NCBI GenBank assembly: GCA_000004985.1
Contig: GG738889.1
Length of the DNA: 64,000 nt
Direction: 5' to 3' (one strand)
Source: Naegleria gruberi
Taxonomy: Eukaryota
Positions 24,555 through 34,095 of this stretch are shown one piece after another. A program made the translations under genes and the position numbers. Position 1 is the first letter of the stretch, and each line of letters opens with the position of its first letter. The notes under the pieces are model-generated. The model had not been told where the DNA came from. It saw only the letters and a program-made list of their open reading frames with translations, and searched no databases.

Positions 24555-25756
24555 TTATGCATCACCAAGAATAGGTGTGTTTGCAAATTTATATCTGGTT
24601 CCTGTATGACGTTTCTTAATACTAATATATGAATCCAGGTTATCCTTGAAGGTTAGTATGATTTGGTTCATTAAGAAATTACAGAATGGAGATTGTACAG
24701 GTTTAGTTGAATGGGATTTACCTTTATGCTCCGCAATAGATCGAAAGTATGTTTGTTTGTCAGCATTTTCAATGATAGTGATTGGATATTTACCCCTCAA
24801 CAAGACATAGTTCATTAATAATCTAGATATTCTTCCATTCCCATCTTTGAATGGATGAATTTGAACAAAATTGTAATGGATAAGGCAAGCTTGTTTGATT
24901 GGATGGGAATTCATGAATGATGCAGAATTAACATATTGAATAAACTTCCTCATGAGACCTGGAACTTCATTAAAATCAGCTAACAACACCTTTTCAAAGC
25001 CAATTGCAACATTGACTTTTCGGTACGCTCCATTTTCTCTTAATAAATACATCATTAGAGTGATGCATTTGTTGAATGTTTTCCTCACTTAATGTTTCAT
25101 TTTGTTCAATATATTTAAGGATATAATCAAATGCAGTTTTGTGATTCATTACTTCCAAAAATTGTATATATGAAGTTTCTTTGGCAGCAACCTCAGAAAG
25201 TATTTGACTTGTTTGAGAAAATGAAGCAGTGCAACCTTCAATGGCATTTCCATGGTAAATAAATCTTGCCAGAGTGTCATTGGCAAGGATTTCTTTCATA
25301 TCAAAGTTAAAGCTCTGGGACAAATCTTCAACAACAGCTAAATCATTTTCATCTTAAACCAATAAGAAATAAGAAAAAGTAAAGCCTACCCAATTCAATT
25401 TCTGAAGGATGTTGAAACAAACTGGCATAACCTTGATATATTGCACCATCCTCAACCAATTCATAAAAATTGGAAGTACTTCTAAACGGTTCGTACAGCT
25501 TTTTCATCTCTTCTTCTCTCCAAGTCTCTGCCTCATAAAATAGTTTAAATTGGTTCCTTTGTTTCAGTAGCTTGTCGGAATCAACATATTCCTGAGTACT
25601 TTCGTAAGTATAAAACACAACAATGCTTAATAAAAGTATCACGACCACTCCACAAATATACAACACAATATTATCTTTTCGAATTGTTTTCTTGGTTTTT
25701 GGTACCGAAGTTTTCTTGTAGTTTGTTTTCCTTACTATATTTCCCTTGCTTATCAT
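24555..25756 (-). CDS. Fic-domain AMPylase, FICD/HYPE-like (N-terminal TM anchor plus Fic core). It is disrupted by a +1 frameshift in an A4/T4 homopolymer (plus-strand T run 25033..25036). It is either a pseudogene or a sequence error.
   Basis: Fic motif 'HPFKDGNGRISRLLMNYVLL'. The upstream frame carries 'YHGNAIEGCT' (inhibitory-helix-like xxxE[GN]) and 'AYRKVNVAI'. Exon 1 is 25390..25756 (TM 'LYICGVVVILLLSIVVFYTY'). The candidate intron 25353..25389 (gtaggc..ag) is only 37 bp and uncertain. Dropping one A from the minus-strand run AAAA gives a continuous '..MHHSNDVFIKRNGAYRKVNVAIGF..'. Confidence 0.6.
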
Positions 25757-25982
25757 TTTTTTGTGAGTTTTTTATTGTGCAAAAGACGAAAGCTTTAGAA
25801 AATTGCATTATTTCTGGATATGAGACAATTATATTTTCAAGAAGTTGAGCAATAACCACATTCTGGTTTTTCAAATAGAGAAGTAAAGCTCCAAGCTATA
25901 AATATCAATTTTTTTGTCATATGCAATATTTTCACAAACCTCTGGAGTGTTGTACCAACATTTTCAGTCACTTGAGATTTAC

Positions 25983-27080
25983 CTAGTTCTTCAGTGGTGT
26001 TTCAGATATTGGTCTGTAAGGATTCGATGTGGAGACAGTAGTTTCTGGTACATAATTCTGAATAAAAATGGCCATATCCAACCATAATTCCAAACATTGA
26101 ACAGCATGTAAGTTATCAAATTCCTTCATGTAGAGAAAATATTTGGGCACTATTAATGTTTGATTATTGATGACTTGCTCTTCAAATTTAGCCTCCAAAA
26201 CGAACAGAAAGGCAACTTTTTGTAGGTATAACAACCCCTCCACTTTGCTGTACTTTTCCATTTGTTCCTTTTTTAAACGAAAGTGTTTCATGTTTTCTCT
26301 GAAAAAGTTATTTAAATCCAAGTGAATAACATCTTACCTTAGTAAACTCTTCATACAAATAATCAATTTCTGGCCGTCTGTTCCTGGATTGTTCCACTTC
26401 ACTGGATGGTCGATTGCCTTATCTTCCCTTATCAAAAATCTACTTTCTTCAGTTTGCAAAAACCCATCATTTCGTACTTTAATTAGAGGCAACTCATCAC
26501 ATAAACAAACTGAATGTTGTTTGTCCCTGATCATATTCTCCTATTAGCATTTCTATTAATAAGAAACTTACCCATTCAAACTGATATTGTTAAAATTTGA
26601 ACATAGTGCATTAAATAGACTATTAATGGCTGAAGACACTACCATGTCTCCCAAAGGTTCTCTTCTTTTATAAATATCGAACAACTTTCGTGTCGAACAT
26701 AACAACTCCATAACTGTCCCAATACTGGCTCTGCACCCTTCAAAAGAGGATTCGAGCTCTAGCTTTAAACTTTCAAACTTTTCCCAGCTATCTTTCTCTT
26801 GGTAAATGTCGGTAATCCTTTCCAAACTTTCCTTTGGGAATGAAAAATCAGGTTTCCAACTCATAGGTGTAATGTCGAGTGTTGAGAAGAAAGGTGCACT
26901 TTCTTTTGCCCAATAGGGAAGATCCTGATTTTCGGAAATGATTGCTCTTTCACAAAATCTCACAAAAGCCTCAAGTTTTCCTTCATCTTCCACAATTCCC
27001 TTAATTACTTGTTGTAGACTTTGCTTTAGTCCCTCCTTGCTGTCTTCTTCTGCTCTTTCGATGAGTTTTCTCTTTGGCAT
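25983..27080 (-). CDS. Hypothetical three-exon protein (unknown function).
   Basis: Exons 26572..27080, 26338..26526 and 25983..26298. Intron 1 is 45 bp (26527..26571, gtaagt..ag) and intron 2 is 39 bp (26299..26337, gtaaga..ttttcag). Splicing joins three ORF-track ORFs in frame. No motif recognised. Confidence 0.55.
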
Positions 27081-27265: not shown

Positions 27266-29896
27266 CTAAAAGCCAAATGGTTTCATGTAAGAAATGATAA
27301 GATTAATATTATCTAAGAAATTAGCTGATAATTCATCGATCAACTGTTTGAATGGTCCAAATAAGTTCTTATTACGCAGATATTCAGCTAACTCATTGTA
27401 AATCATTCTCTCCATCAATATTATTAAACCTAATACTCTTTGGAAAGATTTAGGATAATAGTGGCTTCTTTCTAAATGTCCCTCATTATCCACATAAATT
27501 TTGGAAGGAGATGAACTCTCGAAAACATGTCCAATAAAAGCATCAAATGCTGCTGTCTGCAAGAGAATATCTTTGAATGATTGAGATTTTGATGTTGTAA
27601 AGTCAGAGAGCTTAGAATTTTTACCCCCAACTCTTTGTGAGTGAATTGGAGAAACAAGACTAAACCCTTTTCCAAAAGCAGTGGGGAAATTTCTAACCCT
27701 ACGATTTGTGTAAGGAACATTAATCCAAAATCTGTTCACATCAATAAAACTGTTGATAATCAAGTTAAATAATTGATCTAATGGTGAATATTCCAATTCC
27801 AATACTTCCCCACTCTTGAACTGCAGTATTACATTGGATATGGAAAACTTTTGAACAGAAGGAATAACTGTCATTACCTCATCATGCATGCTGTAAAATG
27901 GTATGAATAGTGGTTTGGAAAATTCACCGTTCATACCTCCCGTAGTTAATTTCTCAATTGAGTCCAAAAAGAGACATTGATTTTGAATGATTTCCTTTTC
28001 CTCAGTATTAATCATTGACATGTATTGGGAAAGTATAAATTTGCTGATTGGATGTCGATGTGATTCCACTTTCAGCAACCAGAAAAATTGATTTCCAATA
28101 ACTTTGGATGTAAGAGATCTTCTTACAAGATATTGAGTCAGTACTCCATTAACACTATCAAACTTGATACAATTTGTGAGATAAGGTAGCAATACCAAAA
28201 AATCTTCATCAGTGGTATCTTGCAGCATTTCTGTAATTGTAAGTTTGATAAAAACACTGTTGGAAACACTTTCTGATAGAATTCTCAATAGTTTCATCAC
28301 GTGTTGTGGTTTTTTCCATTTAGATACATATTGTTTGGCCAAATATACAGCCCATGGATTTTGAAATGGTATACTTCTCAAAAATGGTACAATCTTGTCT
28401 GGATTACTAATGTTAACATCCTTTTGTTTCCATTCCTTCATAGAAGGTAAATCATTCAATGTTAAGTTCATTGGTTCAACTCTATTAAAAAGAACAATTT
28501 GTGTTTCCTCATAAACTTCCAAAGATTCTTTAAACTTCAGTGGTGGTATTTTCTCTATTTCATACATGACCGAATGCTCATAATTCTCGAATGAAACGTC
28601 AACAGAAAATGTTGTATCAATACCGTCTATTGTGGTATCTTTGGAAAATAATTTAACATTTCCTTGTTGTAGCTCCAAATTTGAATCGAAAACTGGGCAT
28701 TCTACTTTTGACACGTATTTTCTTTTAGTTATTCCAGTAATAGGGTTTACCATTAAGCAGAATAGTGTTAATTCTATCATTCCATCACAAGAAAGGTCTG
28801 ATATACGAATGTTATCAAAACTAATTTCCTCATTCCATTCCAAACAATCCGAATGTGGTATACACTTGGTATATTTTCTCTCACTGGTCTCGTTGCTATA
28901 TATTTTGCATTCAATTACAAAAGAAAGAGTACTGAAAGGTTTGAAGTCTGTGTGAAAGTATGATATTCCCTGTATACCCTTGATGAAAATTTTCAGATTC
29001 TTATCAAAATCGAAAGAGCAAATGGCACCGTCCTTCTTTGCAATGTCAGTAGTTTGAGTGATTAAAGAATTTAAAAACTTGAAATATGGTTCAACATCAT
29101 TTTCGTGTTCAATATTCATCTTGGTTGGTGCACAATCAACCTCTATATTTTTCTTCGATCCTAAAGAAAGTAAAAGTCCTCTTTCAACATTCTTCATCAA
29201 GTTGATTTTGACAATTAAAGTTTTAAGGGAAGGTAAACCTTCTAAAATTGGTATGATACCCTCAGTCAAAGGGTTGGCAGAAATATTAAGCCTTGTTAAG
29301 TTTTTCCATTCACATTCACTCATAAGCTCTGTAAAATTCCTCGTATCCATATTAATTGAAGAAATATCCAGAGAGGTCAACCCTTCCAGTTTACAAATTT
29401 TGGATATTAATCCTTTTCCAAATGAATGGCCATTTACAGTTAAACATGTCAGGTGGAGTGGCTTGATTTCATTTGAACTGTAGATATTTTCCCAAAAACG
29501 TTTGCTCATATTATTTAAAGTAAGTGATTTTAGATTTTTGAATTCACACTTTTCAAAATTCTCAAATCCATTAGTTTGCACATCATCAAGAGCCAAATAC
29601 TCCAAGTTTTCTGAAAAGTTTTCAATATTAGTATAGCAGTGTGTTATGGAGAGTTTTTTCAATCCCAAAGGAAGAATGGATGTTTCTATTGTGATATTTC
29701 CTTCTAAATCTAATGATTCGAGATTTTCAAAATCCAACCTGGGAAGAGGTGATATTCTTTCAAAACGATCACTGTATATAGCCAGTGATCTAATTTGTGG
29801 TTTGATAGAAAGCATCTTATCTACCAAATATGAAGTATATGCAAAATCAACTTTCAACTCGACAAGATTAGGTAGTCTTTCCCTGCTCTCTAACAA
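27266..29896 (-). CDS. LRR protein fused to a PI3K-like module: N-terminal leucine-rich repeats, a central region, a PI3K accessory/helical domain and a degenerate kinase-like C-terminal region. It may be the same gene as the F-box ORF 29890..30300.
   Basis: LRRs 'LDFENLESLDLEGN..LKKLSITHC..LEYLALDD'. Helical-domain signature 'LTSKVIGNQFFWLLKVESH' (compare PI3K 'IGHFFFWHLKSE'). Canonical catalytic motifs (GDDLRQD, DRH, DFG) were not found. The ORF 'M' is a TTG and the frame is open upstream. Confidence 0.5.
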   Translation of the reverse strand: MLESRERLPNLVELKVDFAYTSYLVDKMLSIKPQIRSLAIYSDRFERISPLPRLDFENLESLDLEGNITIETSILPLGLKKLSITHCYTNIENFSENLEYLALDDVQTNGFENFEKCEFKNLKSLTLNNMSKRFWENIYSSNEIKPLHLTCLTVNGHSFGKGLISKICKLEGLTSLDISSINMDTRNFTELMSECEWKNLTRLNISANPLTEGIIPILEGLPSLKTLIVKINLMKNVERGLLLSLGSKKNIEVDCAPTKMNIEHENDVEPYFKFLNSLITQTTDIAKKDGAICSFDFDKNLKIFIKGIQGISYFHTDFKPFSTLSFVIECKIYSNETSERKYTKCIPHSDCLEWNEEISFDNIRISDLSCDGMIELTLFCLMVNPITGITKRKYVSKVECPVFDSNLELQQGNVKLFSKDTTIDGIDTTFSVDVSFENYEHSVMYEIEKIPPLKFKESLEVYEETQIVLFNRVEPMNLTLNDLPSMKEWKQKDVNISNPDKIVPFLRSIPFQNPWAVYLAKQYVSKWKKPQHVMKLLRILSESVSNSVFIKLTITEMLQDTTDEDFLVLLPYLTNCIKFDSVNGVLTQYLVRRSLTSKVIGNQFFWLLKVESHRHPISKFILSQYMSMINTEEKEIIQNQCLFLDSIEKLTTGGMNGEFSKPLFIPFYSMHDEVMTVIPSVQKFSISNVILQFKSGEVLELEYSPLDQLFNLIINSFIDVNRFWINVPYTNRRVRNFPTAFGKGFSLVSPIHSQRVGGKNSKLSDFTTSKSQSFKDILLQTAAFDAFIGHVFESSSPSKIYVDNEGHLERSHYYPKSFQRVLGLIILMERMIYNELAEYLRNKNLFGPFKQLIDELSANFLDNINLIISYMKPFGF

Positions 29897-30300
29897 ATAT
29901 TGATAATCATATTTGACGTATATTCTCTAACATCCAAAGACTTTAACTTTGAAAATTTGTCAATAATTAACTTTAAACCACTCGAGCTGAATTCATTTCT
30001 TCTCAAACTCAAATATTCCAAAGCATTTGCATTCATGGAAGAACACACTCTTTCAATCTCACTATCTGTTAAATGACAACCAACAGCCGAAAACTTTTTA
30101 ATAGAAAAATAATAATCATCAGCCTGATGATCAAGTAATAACTTAGAAAATTCCTGTTTTGAAGTAAACTTCAATCGGAGATGAACTAATCTTCTCACAA
30201 CCAGCCATCTCTTACAAACTTGCGAAGTAATCAAAAAGACAAACTTTGCATGAAGAAAGGAGAAAATTTCGGCAATAATTTCCTCTGGCAATTGATTCAT
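29890..30300 (-). CDS. F-box domain ORF with LRR-like tail. It is probably the 5' exon of the downstream LRR/PI3K-like gene.
   Basis: 'LPEEIIAEIFSFLHAKFVFLITSQVCKRWL' is a canonical F-box. Its stop overlaps the start of the 27266..29896 frame. A candidate 89-nt GT..AG intron (donor after '..NEFSSS') would join '..RRNEFSSS|ESRERLPNLVELK' in frame. Confidence 0.5.
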   Translation of the reverse strand: MNQLPEEIIAEIFSFLHAKFVFLITSQVCKRWLVVRRLVHLRLKFTSKQEFSKLLLDHQADDYYFSIKKFSAVGCHLTDSEIERVCSSMNANALEYLSLRRNEFSSSGLKLIIDKFSKLKSLDVREYTSNMIINIC

Positions 30301-30486: not shown

Positions 30487-31388
30487 TTAGGCATATTTAA
30501 TCATTAGAATGATGAATATTAAAATTGATATCAGAATACAAGCAATAATTGAAATAACGGTCACTACTCTACACATCATTCGATTCTTGGTGCTTTTTGC
30601 TTGATAAACAAATGTCTGAGAGTCACTGTTCAAATCAGTAGTTTTCTGAGATAGGTCTCTAGTAGATTCCATATTTACAATAATCTTATCAATGTTGGAA
30701 ACCATGATTTTCTTAACATCTTCAATTTGAGATTGAATCAGCACAATTTTATCATTTTCCACTCGTGTACAATAATCCAATTGTTGACCAAGTAATTTTT
30801 CCACCTTTTTGTAAAAATCTTCGTGTAATCTTTGATTATTTGATTTGAAAATTTCATAATTTATACTTTGCAATAATTTAATAAATTCATTTTTCACTCT
30901 ATCCAATAATCCAAAACAAATTCTCAAATGAGTACTATAATAATTCCATAATTTAAATTCCACAATAAATTCACCACATACCTCTCCTCTGCAATGCAAA
31001 CATAGAAATAAAATCTTCCATTGAAATGATGTTCCAAAACATGAATCTGTTGAGTGGCAATTTGAAATGTTGTTTTAAAAATTGAACTAGCAAGAGATGA
31101 ATCATTAAATTGATTGAGATCAGTTCTCTGTTTTTCCACAACTTTAAAACAAGTAGACCTCAGATTTTCTGTTGTTTTCTGTAATTGTGGTCTGAGAGCA
31201 GCATCACCATGAAAATATATTTTAGAATTTTGTGGTGTTGCCAAATAATTATTTTCCATAGATGGACCAGGACGTGAAAACACAGCGACCATGTGAATAT
31301 CGTGGTAATTGTTATTGGTGTTGGATTGATGTTCACTTGATCCTCCTCCAAGTATTGGAGTCCTTTCCGAAGCATTGTTTCTACTCAT
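30487..31388 (-). CDS. Longin-domain R-SNARE (VAMP7/Sec22-like) with a C-terminal TM anchor. Two exons.
   Basis: Exons 30982..31388 and 30487..30922 with a 59-bp intron 30923..30981 (gtatgt..ag). Longin block 'HHFNGRFYFYVCIAEER|ICFGLLDRVKNEFIKLLQ'. SNARE heptads 'IEDVKKIMVSNIDKIIVNMESTRDLSQKTTDLNSDSQTF'. TM 'VVTVISIIACILISILIFIILMI'. Confidence 0.7.
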
Positions 31389-31536: not shown

Positions 31537-34095
31537 TTAGAGAAAGTTAAAGTTATTGTTATTCATGTACAGAATGGATTGTTTAACCTGACCAATTATA
31601 TCTGCATATTCATTCTTCATGAATTGTTCGCATTCCTTAATTGGACCAGTCAAAGAATAGGAGAGGTCTGAAGTACCTTTTGTTAGTCTCAAACTACTTG
31701 TTTTAGAAACCTTTTTCAAAAGAATGGGTAATCCCATTTCTCTTTCAGTCCCGTTAGTAAACGAGATCTGAACAGTCTTTTCTAAGTATTTCTTCATCTC
31801 GACATCAAAAGTTCTAAAGGCCTCTTCTACCTTTTCCATTCTAACTCCTCTAATATAAAACATTTTAGTTTGATCGCTATGATCAATATAAACACCGATT
31901 GGTAGTTTCATAGTGGTGATGTATCTTGTTAGGTTTTGAACTACATCAACAGGAAGTGAATCAGATGGGATCATCTTTTTGTAACCTCGGATAATTTCAA
32001 TAGTTTTTTGCTTTAAAACATTCTTTGTGTTTGTATCAAACTCATCTGAAATTATGGCAATATCTACATAAACCTTCTTCTTCTTGTCTATGTCTCGAGT
32101 GATTTGATATGCCATCCTACTATAGGAGTCGAGATAATTCTCTAATTCCTTCTTAGTTTCCCCAAATAATTCTGTACGTCCTGTAATGTCATGAATATGG
32201 ATAATTTCAATTCTATCTAACCACTTCTTCAACTCTTTAGAATCACTACTATCTTTCAATACAACCTTATTATCTCTTTCAGAGTAATCAGTTGGATTCA
32301 AAAGCTCTGGATGACATTTTCTAATAAGCTTAATCTTAATAGATGGTGAATCACCTCTCTTGGCAATCTTCTTTTCTAACTTGGCTTTAGCTTTTTCAGA
32401 TGGACAATGACAGTAGAGTGCAATCTCGTTCTCAATTTGGTTGTTATGCTTATCCTTTTGAGGTTTGATTTGGTACTTGTAATTATGTTTAAGGATAGTT
32501 TCGATAGATTCCTTTTCATGGAGTTTATAAACACCAATAAAACAGTAGATATGCTTAGATAATTTTTCCATATCATCTTCACTTAGGGATGCTACGTGAC
32601 AAACATTGGCAGAATCAAAGAAGCAAAGAGAGTTGTACTTAGATGCCTTCTTTTGAATCTCTCTTCTTCTTTCTTCCTTCATTTCACAATAACATTCTCT
32701 AAAGAAAACCTTTTTAAGAAGATCTCTCACTTGTTGTTCAACCTTTTCAAAAGTTACCTTCTTAAATTCAAGAATTAATCTATCACCTTGATTATCAAAA
32801 GTATAGGTTACTTTCAAATCTTTCATGATTGTATCCAAATCAGATGATAATAACTCTTGAAGAACAATTATTTCGATAGGTTTTAACAATAAAGGAGTAG
32901 TCTTCTTCTTTTCCTTCTTTTTAGATTTTTGTGGTTTGTTCTTATTTGATGTAGTTACACCACTACCATTTGCAGTTGAACTATTGTTACTACTGGTATC
33001 AGTAACAGTATTACTATTTGTATCATTAGCTGTTGCAGTTGGTGGAGGTTGAATAATATCTTGGTTATTTACTTCAAATCTAAATTGTGAAGTGTTACTA
33101 GAGTTTGGATCTTGGAATTGATTAAAGTTTTCACCAACAGATTGATGTAAACTTCCTTCAAAAGATGCCGTAGTAGATCGAGGTGTACTATAACTAGTAG
33201 TGCTGGTACTAGCAGCTGGATATTGGTTATCACTATTTACATAATATTGATAATTACTGTTGTTATAATGTAATGGAGGTTGAGAAACAGCAGTTTGATT
33301 ACCATTGTTGATAACATTAGTTAGATTATTTAGATTATAGCTATTATTTGGATAATTGAACGGTTGATATTGCCTCGATGGTTGATTTCCCAAAATTGGT
33401 CCCATATTTGTTGTTAGTGGTTGTTTGTTTTGATAGTCACCACCAAAACTGCTTCCAAACATAGGAGCGCTATTGTTCAAGAAAAAATTATTTCCAAAAT
33501 TATGATCTAGAGGTTGTTGTGGTGGTTGGTTAGAAACATTTTGATAATAATTATTTCCATATGACTGATTATCCGTATATTGATCGTTAAAGTCAATTTG
33601 ATAGCTCAATGATTGATCTAGTAAATGATCGTTATTCCTATATTTTTTAGTATTGTTGTTGTTATACGGTTGAAAACTAGAGTAGTGATAACCTGGTTGT
33701 TGGTTATTCATAGAACCGTTAGAAACCACACCATTACTACCATTGTGAAAGTTTGGAAACTGATTATTCATTGAATAGTAGTTAGATAGTGGTACGCTAG
33801 ATGTTTCGTTAAAGTTACCGTTTTGTTGTTTATCTATAGGTTTGTTGATGTTGTTAGTAACGCTAACGTTAGTATTATTCATAAAAGAATTTAACGGATT
33901 TTTGTTGTTGCTCAAACTCTTTAGAACGTTACTATGAATACCGGTAAAACCATTGTTGTTATTGTTAGTAATACCGTTTAAACTAGATGTATTGGTATTT
34001 ATAAACCCACTAGGTATATTAGTATTATTCATTATTTCGCTTTCTTTTTTAGAGGACAAAATTTGTTGTTGTGATGATAGTACAATATAGTACAA
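31537..34095 (-). CDS. Large protein with an N-terminal N/Q/S/Y-rich prion-like region (~400 aa) and a structured, Lys-rich C-terminal domain of unknown function.
   Basis: 852-aa intronless ORF. The first half is dominated by N, Q, S, Y and P (NNNNG, QPPQQP, YQ). The second half is non-repetitive with conserved-looking Cys/His spacing ('CYCEMKE', 'LYCHCPSEK'). Confidence 0.5.
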   Translation of the reverse strand: MYYIVLSSQQQILSSKKESEIMNNTNIPSGFINTNTSSLNGITNNNNNGFTGIHSNVLKSLSNNKNPLNSFMNNTNVSVTNNINKPIDKQQNGNFNETSSVPLSNYYSMNNQFPNFHNGSNGVVSNGSMNNQQPGYHYSSFQPYNNNNTKKYRNNDHLLDQSLSYQIDFNDQYTDNQSYGNNYYQNVSNQPPQQPLDHNFGNNFFLNNSAPMFGSSFGGDYQNKQPLTTNMGPILGNQPSRQYQPFNYPNNSYNLNNLTNVINNGNQTAVSQPPLHYNNSNYQYYVNSDNQYPAASTSTTSYSTPRSTTASFEGSLHQSVGENFNQFQDPNSSNTSQFRFEVNNQDIIQPPPTATANDTNSNTVTDTSSNNSSTANGSGVTTSNKNKPQKSKKKEKKKTTPLLLKPIEIIVLQELLSSDLDTIMKDLKVTYTFDNQGDRLILEFKKVTFEKVEQQVRDLLKKVFFRECYCEMKEERRREIQKKASKYNSLCFFDSANVCHVASLSEDDMEKLSKHIYCFIGVYKLHEKESIETILKHNYKYQIKPQKDKHNNQIENEIALYCHCPSEKAKAKLEKKIAKRGDSPSIKIKLIRKCHPELLNPTDYSERDNKVVLKDSSDSKELKKWLDRIEIIHIHDITGRTELFGETKKELENYLDSYSRMAYQITRDIDKKKKVYVDIAIISDEFDTNTKNVLKQKTIEIIRGYKKMIPSDSLPVDVVQNLTRYITTMKLPIGVYIDHSDQTKMFYIRGVRMEKVEEAFRTFDVEMKKYLEKTVQISFTNGTEREMGLPILLKKVSKTSSLRLTKGTSDLSYSLTGPIKECEQFMKNEYADIIGQVKQSILYMNNNNFNFL

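What the first reader, a model, noticed from the sequence alone, without database searches (positions are those of the whole stretch)
27266..30300. F-box/LRR N-terminus fused to a PI3K-like helical domain and degenerate kinase-like domain
The 876-aa ORF combines leucine-rich repeats with an unmistakable PI3K accessory-domain signature (IGNQFFWLLKVESH) but lacks the catalytic-loop and activation-loop motifs. This implies a PI3K-derived pseudokinase/scaffold. Its frame is open upstream and abuts a canonical F-box ORF (29890..30300). A candidate 89-nt intron (donor after NEFSSS, acceptor ..tgttag) would fuse them into one F-box-LRR-PI3K-like protein, i.e. a potential SCF substrate adaptor built on a lipid-kinase scaffold. 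I do not know of a described equivalent.
Basis: partly seen in the sequence, partly recalled or inferred. Interest (0 to 1): 0.6.

Follow-up and report, generated by a model that had tools for sequence, protein, structure and literature searches.

The report
F-box/LRR protein with dead PI3K core
This Naegleria gruberi locus encodes a ubiquitin-ligase adaptor head (F-box plus leucine-rich repeats) joined to a catalytically dead copy of a class I-type PI 3-kinase core; it has two paralogs in the same species, and here a one-base frameshift, not an intron, splits it into two reading frames.

Summary
It has weak LRRs and no PI3/PI4-kinase hit. The adjoining 136-aa ORF (29890..30300) starts with a genuine F-box.

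A profile-profile comparison with 30 active PI3Ks (E 5.5e-30) runs colinearly from C2 through the kinase N-lobe to the catalytic loop. The GDDLRQD lysine motif, DRHxxN and DFG are all replaced, and the C-lobe is shortened. It is therefore a PI3K-derived pseudokinase.

Only N. gruberi has relatives. EFC39004 has the LRR-C2-helical-dead-kinase part. The adjacent models EFC37601 (F-box-LRR) and EFC37602 (C2-helical-dead-kinase) cover the rest.

The proposed 89-nt intron is wrong. It would delete an LRR (GLKLIIDKFSKLKSLDV) conserved in both paralogs. The two ORFs instead join through a single missing T in a T-run (29895..29897), giving a 1011-aa protein that aligns across the junction. Whether the frameshift is an assembly error or a real recent mutation cannot be settled here.

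A role as an SCF substrate receptor is inferred, not shown. It is a lineage-restricted new domain combination of moderate interest.

The parts
29890..30300 (-). ORF1, 136 aa: N-terminal exon-equivalent of the gene (F-box plus the first LRRs). It ends at a TAG created by the frameshift.
   Evidence: ORF listing. Pfam F-box-like 31.2 bits and F-box 28.3 bits, both above cut-off. Aligns with the N-terminus of paralog P0004/EFC37601.
30205..30297 (-). F-box motif, LPEEIIAEIFSFLHAKFVFLITSQVCKRWLVV (ORF1 residues 2-32).
   Evidence: Pfam PF12937 E 1.9e-7 and PF00646 E 1.5e-6. The paralog P0004 F-box aligns here. There are weak PDB matches to FBXL17 and TIR1 F-boxes.
29893..29898 (-). Frameshift site. 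The T-run 29897..29895 (ATTTG) needs one more T, or a -1 re-reading of T29896, to read ...SNMIINI|LLESRERLPNLV... as one 1011-aa protein.
   Evidence: Paralog homology runs in ORF1's frame to 29923 and in ORF2's frame from 29908. The corrected fusion aligns without a break to P0004 and P0002.
29890..29978 (-). Rejected; this stretch is coding LRR sequence.
   Evidence: Its translation, GLKLIIDKFSKLKSLDVRE, is conserved in P0004 (LRFIINQFSNLKSLDIRR) and P0002 (FKFNSISHFYKLKSLDIME). The intron model scores lower against both paralogs.
27266..29896 (-). ORF2, 876 aa: LRRs, C2, PIK helical domain and degenerate kinase domain. The public model EFC40945.1 covers only residues 183-876.
29147..30033 (-). 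Leucine-rich-repeat region, spanning the frameshift (ORF1 from about residue 90 to ORF2 about residue 250).
   Evidence: Sub-threshold Pfam LRR hits: LRR_Zer-1 22.2 bits, LRR_14, LRR_4. Generic LRR matches in the PDB. 33% identity to the LRRs of P0004, whose LRR_Zer-1 hit (33.6 bits) is above cut-off.
28577..29014 (-). PI3K-type C2 domain (ORF2 residues about 295-440).
   Evidence: Pfam PI3K_C2 29 bits against a cut-off of 26.4. Aligned to the p110gamma C2. The hhalign alignment starts here. Modelled as a beta-sandwich at pLDDT about 90.
28001..28447 (-). PIK helical (accessory) domain, containing IGNQFFWLLKVESH (ORF2 residues 484-632).
   Evidence: Pfam PI3Ka E 5.5e-18. PDB sequence hits to p110gamma, p110alpha and PI3KC2alpha. 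The AF2 model is all-helical here at pLDDT 80-93.
27269..27934 (-). Degenerate, shortened kinase-like domain (ORF2 residues 655-876). The Lys/GDDLRQD, DRHxxN and DFG motifs are all replaced. Only about 67 residues follow the position of the DFG strand.
   Evidence: No PF00454 hit. Motif scan. Alignments. The AF2 model built with PI3K-containing alignment has pLDDT 50-80 here, and the whole model matches p110 structures over its full length. Tests of this region alone were not significant, and the three-paralog AF2 model was of low confidence.

Best explanation
The two ORFs are one gene of Naegleria gruberi. In its intact form it encodes a protein of about 1011 aa with this order: N-terminal F-box, about a dozen leucine-rich repeats, PI3K-type C2 domain, PIK helical domain, and a degenerate, C-terminally shortened PI3K kinase domain.

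Origin. It belongs to a three-member family found only in N. gruberi in the accessible databases. The family arose by duplication of a heterolobosean class I-type PI3K. The ABD/RBD head was replaced by an F-box-LRR head, and the catalytic residues were lost.

Mechanism (inferred). The protein cannot phosphorylate lipids. The F-box would dock it on Skp1-Cul1-Rbx1. The LRR solenoid together with the dead PI3K core would then act as the substrate- or membrane-recognition platform. In other words, it would be an SCF substrate receptor or scaffold that recruits PI3K-interacting partners, or membranes via C2.

The split. In this assembly the reading frame is broken by one missing T in a T-run at 29895..29897, not by an intron. 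Both halves are otherwise intact, so this is either an assembly error or a very recent mutation.

Shown: domain content, loss of catalytic motifs, paralog architecture, and the frameshift as the joining event.
Inferred: Skp1 binding, the SCF role, and which ligands the dead PI3K core binds.
For: - Identity and annotation: 100% match to EFC40945.1 of N. gruberi NEG-M.
- Domains: the F-box, PI3K_C2 and PI3Ka Pfam matches are above curated cut-offs, and there is no PI3_PI4_kinase hit. Canonical heterolobosean PI3Ks score about 180 bits on that model.
- Homology through the kinase domain: hhalign of the three paralogs against 30 active PI3Ks gives probability 99.8% and E 5.5e-30. It aligns 499 columns, ORF2 residues 290-809, ending at the strand just before DFG. 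ESSSPSKIYV lies opposite GDRHNDNIM, and a gap lies opposite the ATP lysine.
- Motif loss: none of the three paralogs has GDDLRQD, DRHxxN or a kinase-position DFG. Thirty or so full-length PI3K hits have all three.
- Structure: the AF2 model built with PI3K-containing alignment has pTM 0.80. It matches p110alpha/delta/gamma at E about 1e-22 over about 680 alignment columns.
- Family: P0002 (E 8e-86), P0003 (9e-56) and P0004 (3e-26) are the only close hits among 1.84 billion representatives, and all are from N. gruberi. P0004 and P0003 have consecutive accessions on one scaffold.
- One gene: P0004 has the F-box and LRRs in one chain and aligns across the junction. The frameshift-corrected protein beats the intron model against both paralogs. 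The homology changes frame between 29923 and 29908.
- Nearest active relatives are N. gruberi EFC45331 and a Percolomonas PI3K.
Against: - As the sequence stands, the F-box ORF terminates at TAG and the large ORF is in another frame. If the frameshift is real, the F-box is not attached to the PI3K-like part in this copy.
- There is no transcript evidence. No public gene model covers the F-box ORF or the first 182 aa of ORF2.
- The C-terminal 226 aa tested on their own are not significantly similar to kinase domains (hhalign E 0.27).
- An AF2 run with only the three paralogs was uninformative (pLDDT 40.6). The confident kinase-like model therefore leans on the alignment to real PI3Ks.
- In paralog P0002 no F-box is seen in the public model.
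- No ortholog was found in any other species, so long-term conservation is unproven.
- SCF function rests only on the F-box consensus.
Confidence: 0.7

Rival explanations
1. The frameshift is real. This copy is a split or newly decaying gene. It would give a short F-box-only protein of 136 aa, plus a separate LRR-C2-helical-pseudokinase protein started at an internal Met (Met28, or Met183 as in the public model). Alternatively it is a fresh pseudogene. Under this reading, the F-box/PI3K-like fusion exists only in the ancestor and perhaps in a paralog.
For: - The window sequence contains the stop, and the frames differ.
- The public annotation models only residues 183-876.
- A second apparent 1-nt frameshift sits 5 kb away in a Fic gene, so this region may hold decaying genes.
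- The third paralog is also annotated as two genes.
Against: - Both halves are completely open, at 136 and 876 codons, in 32% GC DNA. No further lesions are present, which is not expected for an old pseudogene.
- Two frameshifts within 5 kb fit local assembly indels at least as well.
- The shift lies in a homopolymer run.
Confidence: 0.22
2. One reading: an 89-nt spliceosomal intron (29978..29890, GTTTAAAG...TGTTAG) joins NEFSSS to ESRERLPNLV.
For: The GT..AG boundaries exist and restore a single 981-aa frame. Short introns occur nearby, for example the 47-nt intron in the SNARE gene.
Against: - The 'intron' encodes, in ORF1's frame, an LRR that is conserved in both paralogs.
- Removing it lowers the BLAST score and adds gaps: 143 vs 164 bits against P0004, and 327 vs 337 bits against P0002.
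- The donor GTTTAA is weak compared with the local GTATGT.
- More than 100 alternative GT..AG pairs also restore the frame by chance.
Confidence: 0.04
3. It is an active phosphatidylinositol 3-kinase, as the public annotation says.
For: The annotation name. C2 and helical domains are present.
Against: - There is no PF00454 match at E <= 1.
- The ATP lysine/GDDLRQD, DRHxxN and DFG motifs are all absent in this protein and in both paralogs.
- The C-lobe is truncated.
Confidence: 0.02

Closest known systems
Class I-type PI3K catalytic subunits (p110alpha/gamma/delta; N. gruberi EFC45331; Percolomonas PI3K)
   Same: It has the same order of C2, PIK helical and kinase-position domains. The profile alignment is colinear from C2 to the catalytic loop. 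The best PDB sequence and fold matches are p110gamma, p110alpha and p110delta. The closest active relatives are heterolobosean PI3Ks.
   Different: It has no ABD or RBD; an F-box plus LRRs takes their place. The kinase domain is undetectable by Pfam, all catalytic motifs are replaced, and the activation loop and C-terminal helices are shortened.
FBXL-type F-box/LRR substrate receptors of SCF ligases (Skp2, FBXL17, TIR1)
   Same: It has an N-terminal F-box with the LPxE(I/L)..IF..L...VCKRW consensus, followed directly by LRRs.
   Different: It carries a PI3K-derived module of about 590 aa after the LRRs. I found no described F-box protein with such a module. The LRRs are divergent and fall below Pfam cut-offs in this copy. 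Skp1 binding is untested.
TRRAP/Tra1 (PIKK-family pseudokinase scaffold)
   Same: It is the known precedent for a PI3K-fold kinase domain that lost its catalytic residues and serves as a protein-interaction scaffold (established knowledge, not tested here).
   Different: TRRAP is a PIKK with HEAT, FAT and FATC regions and no C2 or PIK-helical arrangement. The present protein descends from lipid-kinase class I-type PI3Ks and gave no FAT or FATC hits. This is an analogy of principle, not family membership.
N. gruberi paralogs EFC39004.1 (NAEGRDRAFT_52708) and EFC37601.1 + EFC37602.1 (NAEGRDRAFT_53605 / _74644)
   Same: They show 31-36% identity over the whole length, the same domain order and the same loss of catalytic motifs.
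   Different: They are annotated as 'predicted protein' or 'F-box domain-containing protein'. One is modelled without an F-box and one is modelled as two genes. None has been characterised.

Membership tests
PI3K catalytic subunit family (class I/II/III lipid kinases) | PIK helical (accessory) domain | tested here: met
   PF00613: 65.5 bits against a cut-off of 31, E 5.5e-18.
PI3K catalytic subunit family (class I/II/III lipid kinases) | PI3K-type C2 domain N-terminal to the helical domain | tested here: met
   PF00792: 29 bits against a cut-off of 26.4. Aligned to the p110gamma C2.
PI3K catalytic subunit family (class I/II/III lipid kinases) | Recognisable PI3/PI4-kinase catalytic domain (PF00454) | tested here: not met
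   No hit at E <= 1. Canonical relatives score 182-191 bits. The C-terminal region alone against kinase domains gives hhalign E 0.27.
PI3K catalytic subunit family (class I/II/III lipid kinases) | Catalytic residues: Lys in the IFKxGDDLRQD motif, DRHxxN catalytic loop, DFG | tested here: not met
   All are absent from this protein and from both paralogs, and present in about 30 full-length PI3K hits.
PI3K catalytic subunit family (class I/II/III lipid kinases) | Common descent of the whole C2-helical-kinase core (colinear homology) | tested here: met
   hhalign probability 99.8%, E 5.5e-30, 499 columns reaching the catalytic-loop position. Foldseek gives E about 1e-22 to p110 structures over the full length, but that model was built with PI3Ks in the alignment.
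Class I PI3K specifically | Ras-binding domain and adaptor-binding domain N-terminal to C2 | tested here: not met
   No PI3K_rbd or ABD hit; LRRs and an F-box are there instead. The relatives P0005 and P0008 have the RBD.
F-box proteins / FBXL SCF substrate receptors | F-box motif | tested here: met
   PF12937 scores 31.2 against 24.3, and PF00646 scores 28.3 against 20.5, at ORF1 residues 2-32.
F-box proteins / FBXL SCF substrate receptors | LRR domain following the F-box | tested here: inconclusive
   The LRR Pfam hits are all below cut-off in this copy. The homologous region of paralog P0004 passes (LRR_Zer-1, 33.6 against 27). There are generic LRR PDB hits.
F-box proteins / FBXL SCF substrate receptors | F-box and recognition domain on one polypeptide | tested here: inconclusive
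   They are interrupted by a 1-nt frameshift in this sequence. They are continuous in paralog P0004 for F-box plus LRR. No transcript data are available.
F-box proteins / FBXL SCF substrate receptors | Binding to Skp1 and assembly into SCF | not testable with these tools
   Requires co-immunoprecipitation or pull-down with Naegleria Skp1.
PIKK pseudokinase scaffolds (TRRAP/Tra1) | FAT and FATC domains flanking the kinase-like domain | tested here: not met
   No FAT or FATC Pfam hit. The protein ends about 67 residues after the DFG position.

The most novel reading that the evidence does not exclude
A small Naegleria-specific family of SCF ubiquitin-ligase receptors uses a catalytically dead class I PI3K core (C2 + helical + remnant kinase pocket) as a membrane- or phosphoinositide-sensing recognition module. 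Substrate ubiquitination would then be gated by lipid or inositol-phosphate binding. This would be a lipid-kinase-derived counterpart of the inositol-phosphate-dependent F-box/LRR receptors TIR1 and COI1, and the first pseudokinase derived from a class I-type PI3K.
Probability: 0.2. Interest if true: 0.7.

Novelty: new variant of a known kind. Interest (0 to 1): 0.42.

Why it matters
If the fused protein is made, it links two major eukaryotic signalling systems, SCF ubiquitin ligases and PI3K, in one polypeptide. It would also be a rare case of a lipid-kinase PI3K that lost catalysis and was kept as a scaffold.

It also corrects the public annotation:
- EFC40945.1 is not a PI 3-kinase and is N-terminally truncated.
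- Three N. gruberi loci appear to be mis-modelled.

The limits are that the family is seen in one species only, there are no expression or biochemical data, and this particular copy carries a frameshift.

Tried and rejected
- The 89-nt intron: rejected on paralog conservation and alignment scores.
- All GT..AG pairs of 20-400 nt that restore the frame were enumerated. More than 100 exist and none has a strong donor, so splice-site logic alone cannot decide.
- A 44-nt intron (29931..29888, GTTAGA..TTAGAG) was considered. It would keep KLKSLD but delete 13 residues present in both paralogs. It was rejected for the same reason.
- Programmed -1 frameshifting: the site (AAT ATT TGT) is not an X XXY YYZ slippery heptamer, so it was not pursued.
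- The look-up of encoding contigs for P0001, P0002 and P0004 found the N. gruberi genome is not on record. Paralog loci and gene neighbourhoods could therefore not be read.
- A metagenome scan for the junction with three or four Ts gave no hits.
- A metagenome scan for relatives with family-specific motifs gave no confirmed locus.
- hhalign of the C-terminal 226 aa alone against kinase domains was not significant, although it chose the correct register.
- AF2 with only the three paralogs had pLDDT 40.6 and was unusable as an independent fold test.
- Literature searches for F-box/PI3K/pseudokinase in Naegleria returned nothing relevant.
- Other motif-less hits (P0029, P0040, P0045, P0061) were checked for being the same kind of protein. 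They are truncated fragments of ordinary RBD-C2-helical PI3Ks.
Full report
**What is there**

The window is AT-rich eukaryotic DNA (GC about 0.32-0.36). On the minus strand, an 876-aa ORF lies at 27266..29896 and a 136-aa ORF at 29890..30300. They overlap by 7 nt in different frames.

Residues 183-876 of the large ORF are 100% identical to Naegleria gruberi NEG-M protein EFC40945.1/XP_002673689.1, annotated 'phosphatidylinositol 3-kinase'. The organism is therefore N. gruberi. No public gene model covers the F-box ORF or the first 182 residues of the large ORF.

**Domain content**

Pfam results for the large ORF:
- PIK helical domain: E 5.5e-18, 65.5 bits against a cut-off of 31, residues 484-632.
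- Several LRR families match below their cut-offs in residues about 90-250.
- There is no PI3_PI4_kinase match, even at E <= 1.

The small ORF begins with a good F-box, LPEEIIAEIFSFLHAKFVFLITSQVCKRW. It scores 31.2 bits on F-box-like against a cut-off of 24.3, and 28.3 bits on F-box against 20.5.

By sequence, the nearest solved structures are class I p110gamma and p110alpha and class II PI3KC2alpha, through the C2 and helical regions.

**Is the C-terminus a dead kinase domain?**

Canonical relatives, including N. gruberi's own PI3K EFC45331 and a Percolomonas PI3K, score 182-191 bits on PF00454. This protein scores nothing.

In alignments with active PI3Ks, the catalytic motifs of the active enzymes face these sequences here:

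| Motif in active PI3Ks | This protein |
|---|---|
| IFKAGDDLRQD | LELEY-SPLDQL; the ATP lysine falls in a gap in the profile alignment |
| GIGDRHNDNIM | VFESSSPSKIYV |
| HIDFGH | LERSHY |

A motif scan confirms that none of the three family members has these motifs at the kinase positions. About 30 full-length PI3K hits have all three. Only about 67 residues follow the DFG position, against about 135 in active enzymes.

The evidence that this region is still homologous to a kinase domain is mixed:
- A profile-profile comparison of the three paralogs (C2 to the end) with 30 active PI3Ks gives probability 99.8% and E 5.5e-30. It aligns 499 columns colinearly, from C2 through the helical domain, the N-lobe and the hinge, to the strand just before DFG.
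- The C-terminal 226 residues tested alone are not significant (E 0.27), although they find the same register.
- An AlphaFold model built on an alignment that includes active PI3Ks has pTM 0.80. C2 and helical regions have pLDDT about 90, and the kinase-like part has 50-80. The model matches p110alpha/delta/gamma at Foldseek E about 1e-22 over its full length.
- A model built from the three paralogs alone is unusable (pLDDT 40.6). The fold evidence is therefore not independent of the alignment.

I conclude that a degenerate, shortened kinase remnant is well supported by colinear homology, and that loss of catalysis is clear.

**Family**

An exhaustive HMMER search of 1.84 billion representative proteins gives only three close relatives, all from N. 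gruberi:
- P0002/EFC39004 (963 aa, E 8e-86): LRR-C2-helical-dead kinase.
- P0003/EFC37602 (529 aa, E 9e-56): partial C2-helical-dead kinase.
- P0004/EFC37601 (450 aa, E 3e-26): F-box plus LRRs.

P0004 and P0003 have consecutive accessions on one scaffold. P0004 ends, and P0003 begins, at positions that flank about 60 missing residues of the C2 domain. They are most simply one mis-modelled gene with the same architecture.

All further hits are ordinary PI3Ks matching the helical domain (E >= 3e-12), or truncated fragments of them. Two metagenome scans found nothing.

The family thus looks like a lineage-specific offshoot of a heterolobosean class I-type PI3K, in which the ABD/RBD head was replaced by F-box-LRR.

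**How the two ORFs are connected**

More than 100 other GT..AG pairs do the same.

Decisive against it is that the 'intron', read in ORF1's frame, encodes GLKLIIDKFSKLKSLDVRE. This aligns with LRFIINQFSNLKSLDIRR in P0004 and FKFNSISHFYKLKSLDIME in P0002.

Homology to P0002 runs in ORF1's frame down to 29923 and resumes in ORF2's frame at 29908. Adding one T to the T-run 29897..29895 gives ...SNMIINILLESRERLPNLVELKVD... and a 1011-aa protein. Its spacing between KLKSLD and LPNLV (18 residues) matches the paralogs (19 and 20).

The frameshift-corrected protein scores higher than the intron model against both paralogs:

| Paralog | Frameshift model | Intron model |
|---|---|---|
| P0004 | 164 bits, 32 gaps | 143 bits, 58 gaps |
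| P0002 | 337 bits | 327 bits |

The donor GTTTAA is also unlike the GTATGT of the clean 47-nt intron in the neighbouring SNARE gene. The junction is therefore a one-base frameshift in a homopolymer, not an intron.

**Error or mutation?**

Both halves are otherwise intact. In this base composition, a random 136-codon frame stays open with probability about 2e-5, and an 876-codon frame with about 1e-30 (my arithmetic). The lesion is therefore either an assembly error or very recent.

Five kilobases away, a Fic-domain gene shows the same symptom. Removing one base gives a better and complete Fic match than the only plausible intron does: 80.3 bits over profile positions 2-93, against 71.7 bits over positions 20-93. 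This pattern is compatible with local indel errors, but equally with two decaying genes. I cannot decide with the tools available.

**Mechanism**

Shown:
- The protein has an F-box of canonical sequence.
- It has LRRs directly behind the F-box, as in FBXL proteins.
- It has a PI3K core that cannot catalyse phosphotransfer.

Inferred from established knowledge of F-box proteins:
- The F-box docks on Skp1-Cul1-Rbx1.
- The remainder presents substrates.

The dead PI3K core keeps the best-conserved surfaces of the family (C2 and helical). It could bind membranes, or partners that normally contact PI3K catalytic subunits. The most adventurous reading is a lipid- or inositol-phosphate-gated receptor analogous to TIR1/COI1. 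Nothing here tests this.

**Comparison and novelty**

- It is not a member of the active PI3K family in the enzymatic sense, because the catalytic domain and catalytic residues were tested and not met. It is a descendant of that family.
- It resembles FBXL receptors in its head.
- It resembles TRRAP/Tra1 only in the principle of a PI3K-fold pseudokinase scaffold.

I found no description of an F-box/PI3K-like fusion.

I rate it a new variant of known kinds and of moderate interest. It is real and unusual. However, it is confined to one species and is without expression or biochemical data, and this copy is broken as it stands in the sequence.

Noticed in passing
window 24555..25323 (-): A Fic-domain gene (HPFKDGNGR motif; Pfam Fic E 1e-19) is split into two overlapping ORFs. 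Deleting one base around 25050..25057 gives a complete Fic match (80.3 bits, profile positions 2-93). That is better than the only plausible intron model (52 nt, 25088..25037; 71.7 bits, profile positions 20-93). This is a second apparent 1-nt frameshift, close to the one under study.
   Followed up: partly
window 30487..31388 (-): An R-SNARE gene (Synaptobrevin domain, E 2e-17, with a C-terminal transmembrane helix) has a clean 47-nt intron, GTATGT...TTATAG, at 30981..30935. It joins ...FYVCIAEE to STHLRICFGLLDRV. It is a useful local example of a strong Naegleria splice donor.
   Followed up: partly
window 31537..34095 (-): An 852-aa ORF has a long Asn/Gln/Ser-rich low-complexity N-terminal half and a Lys/Glu-rich C-terminal half. 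It has no Pfam match.
   Followed up: no
window 29351..30300 (-): The public N. gruberi annotation has no gene model over the F-box ORF or the first 182 codons of the large ORF. The annotated protein EFC40945.1 starts at an internal Met and is named as an active PI 3-kinase, which the sequence does not support.
   Followed up: yes
window 25349..27080 (-): A string of short same-strand ORFs (25349..25756, 25671..25874, 25983..26321, 26334..26534, 26568..27080) has no convincing Pfam match; one weak ISK_Channel hit is probably spurious. They are probably exons of one or two intron-containing genes. This was not resolved.
   Followed up: no
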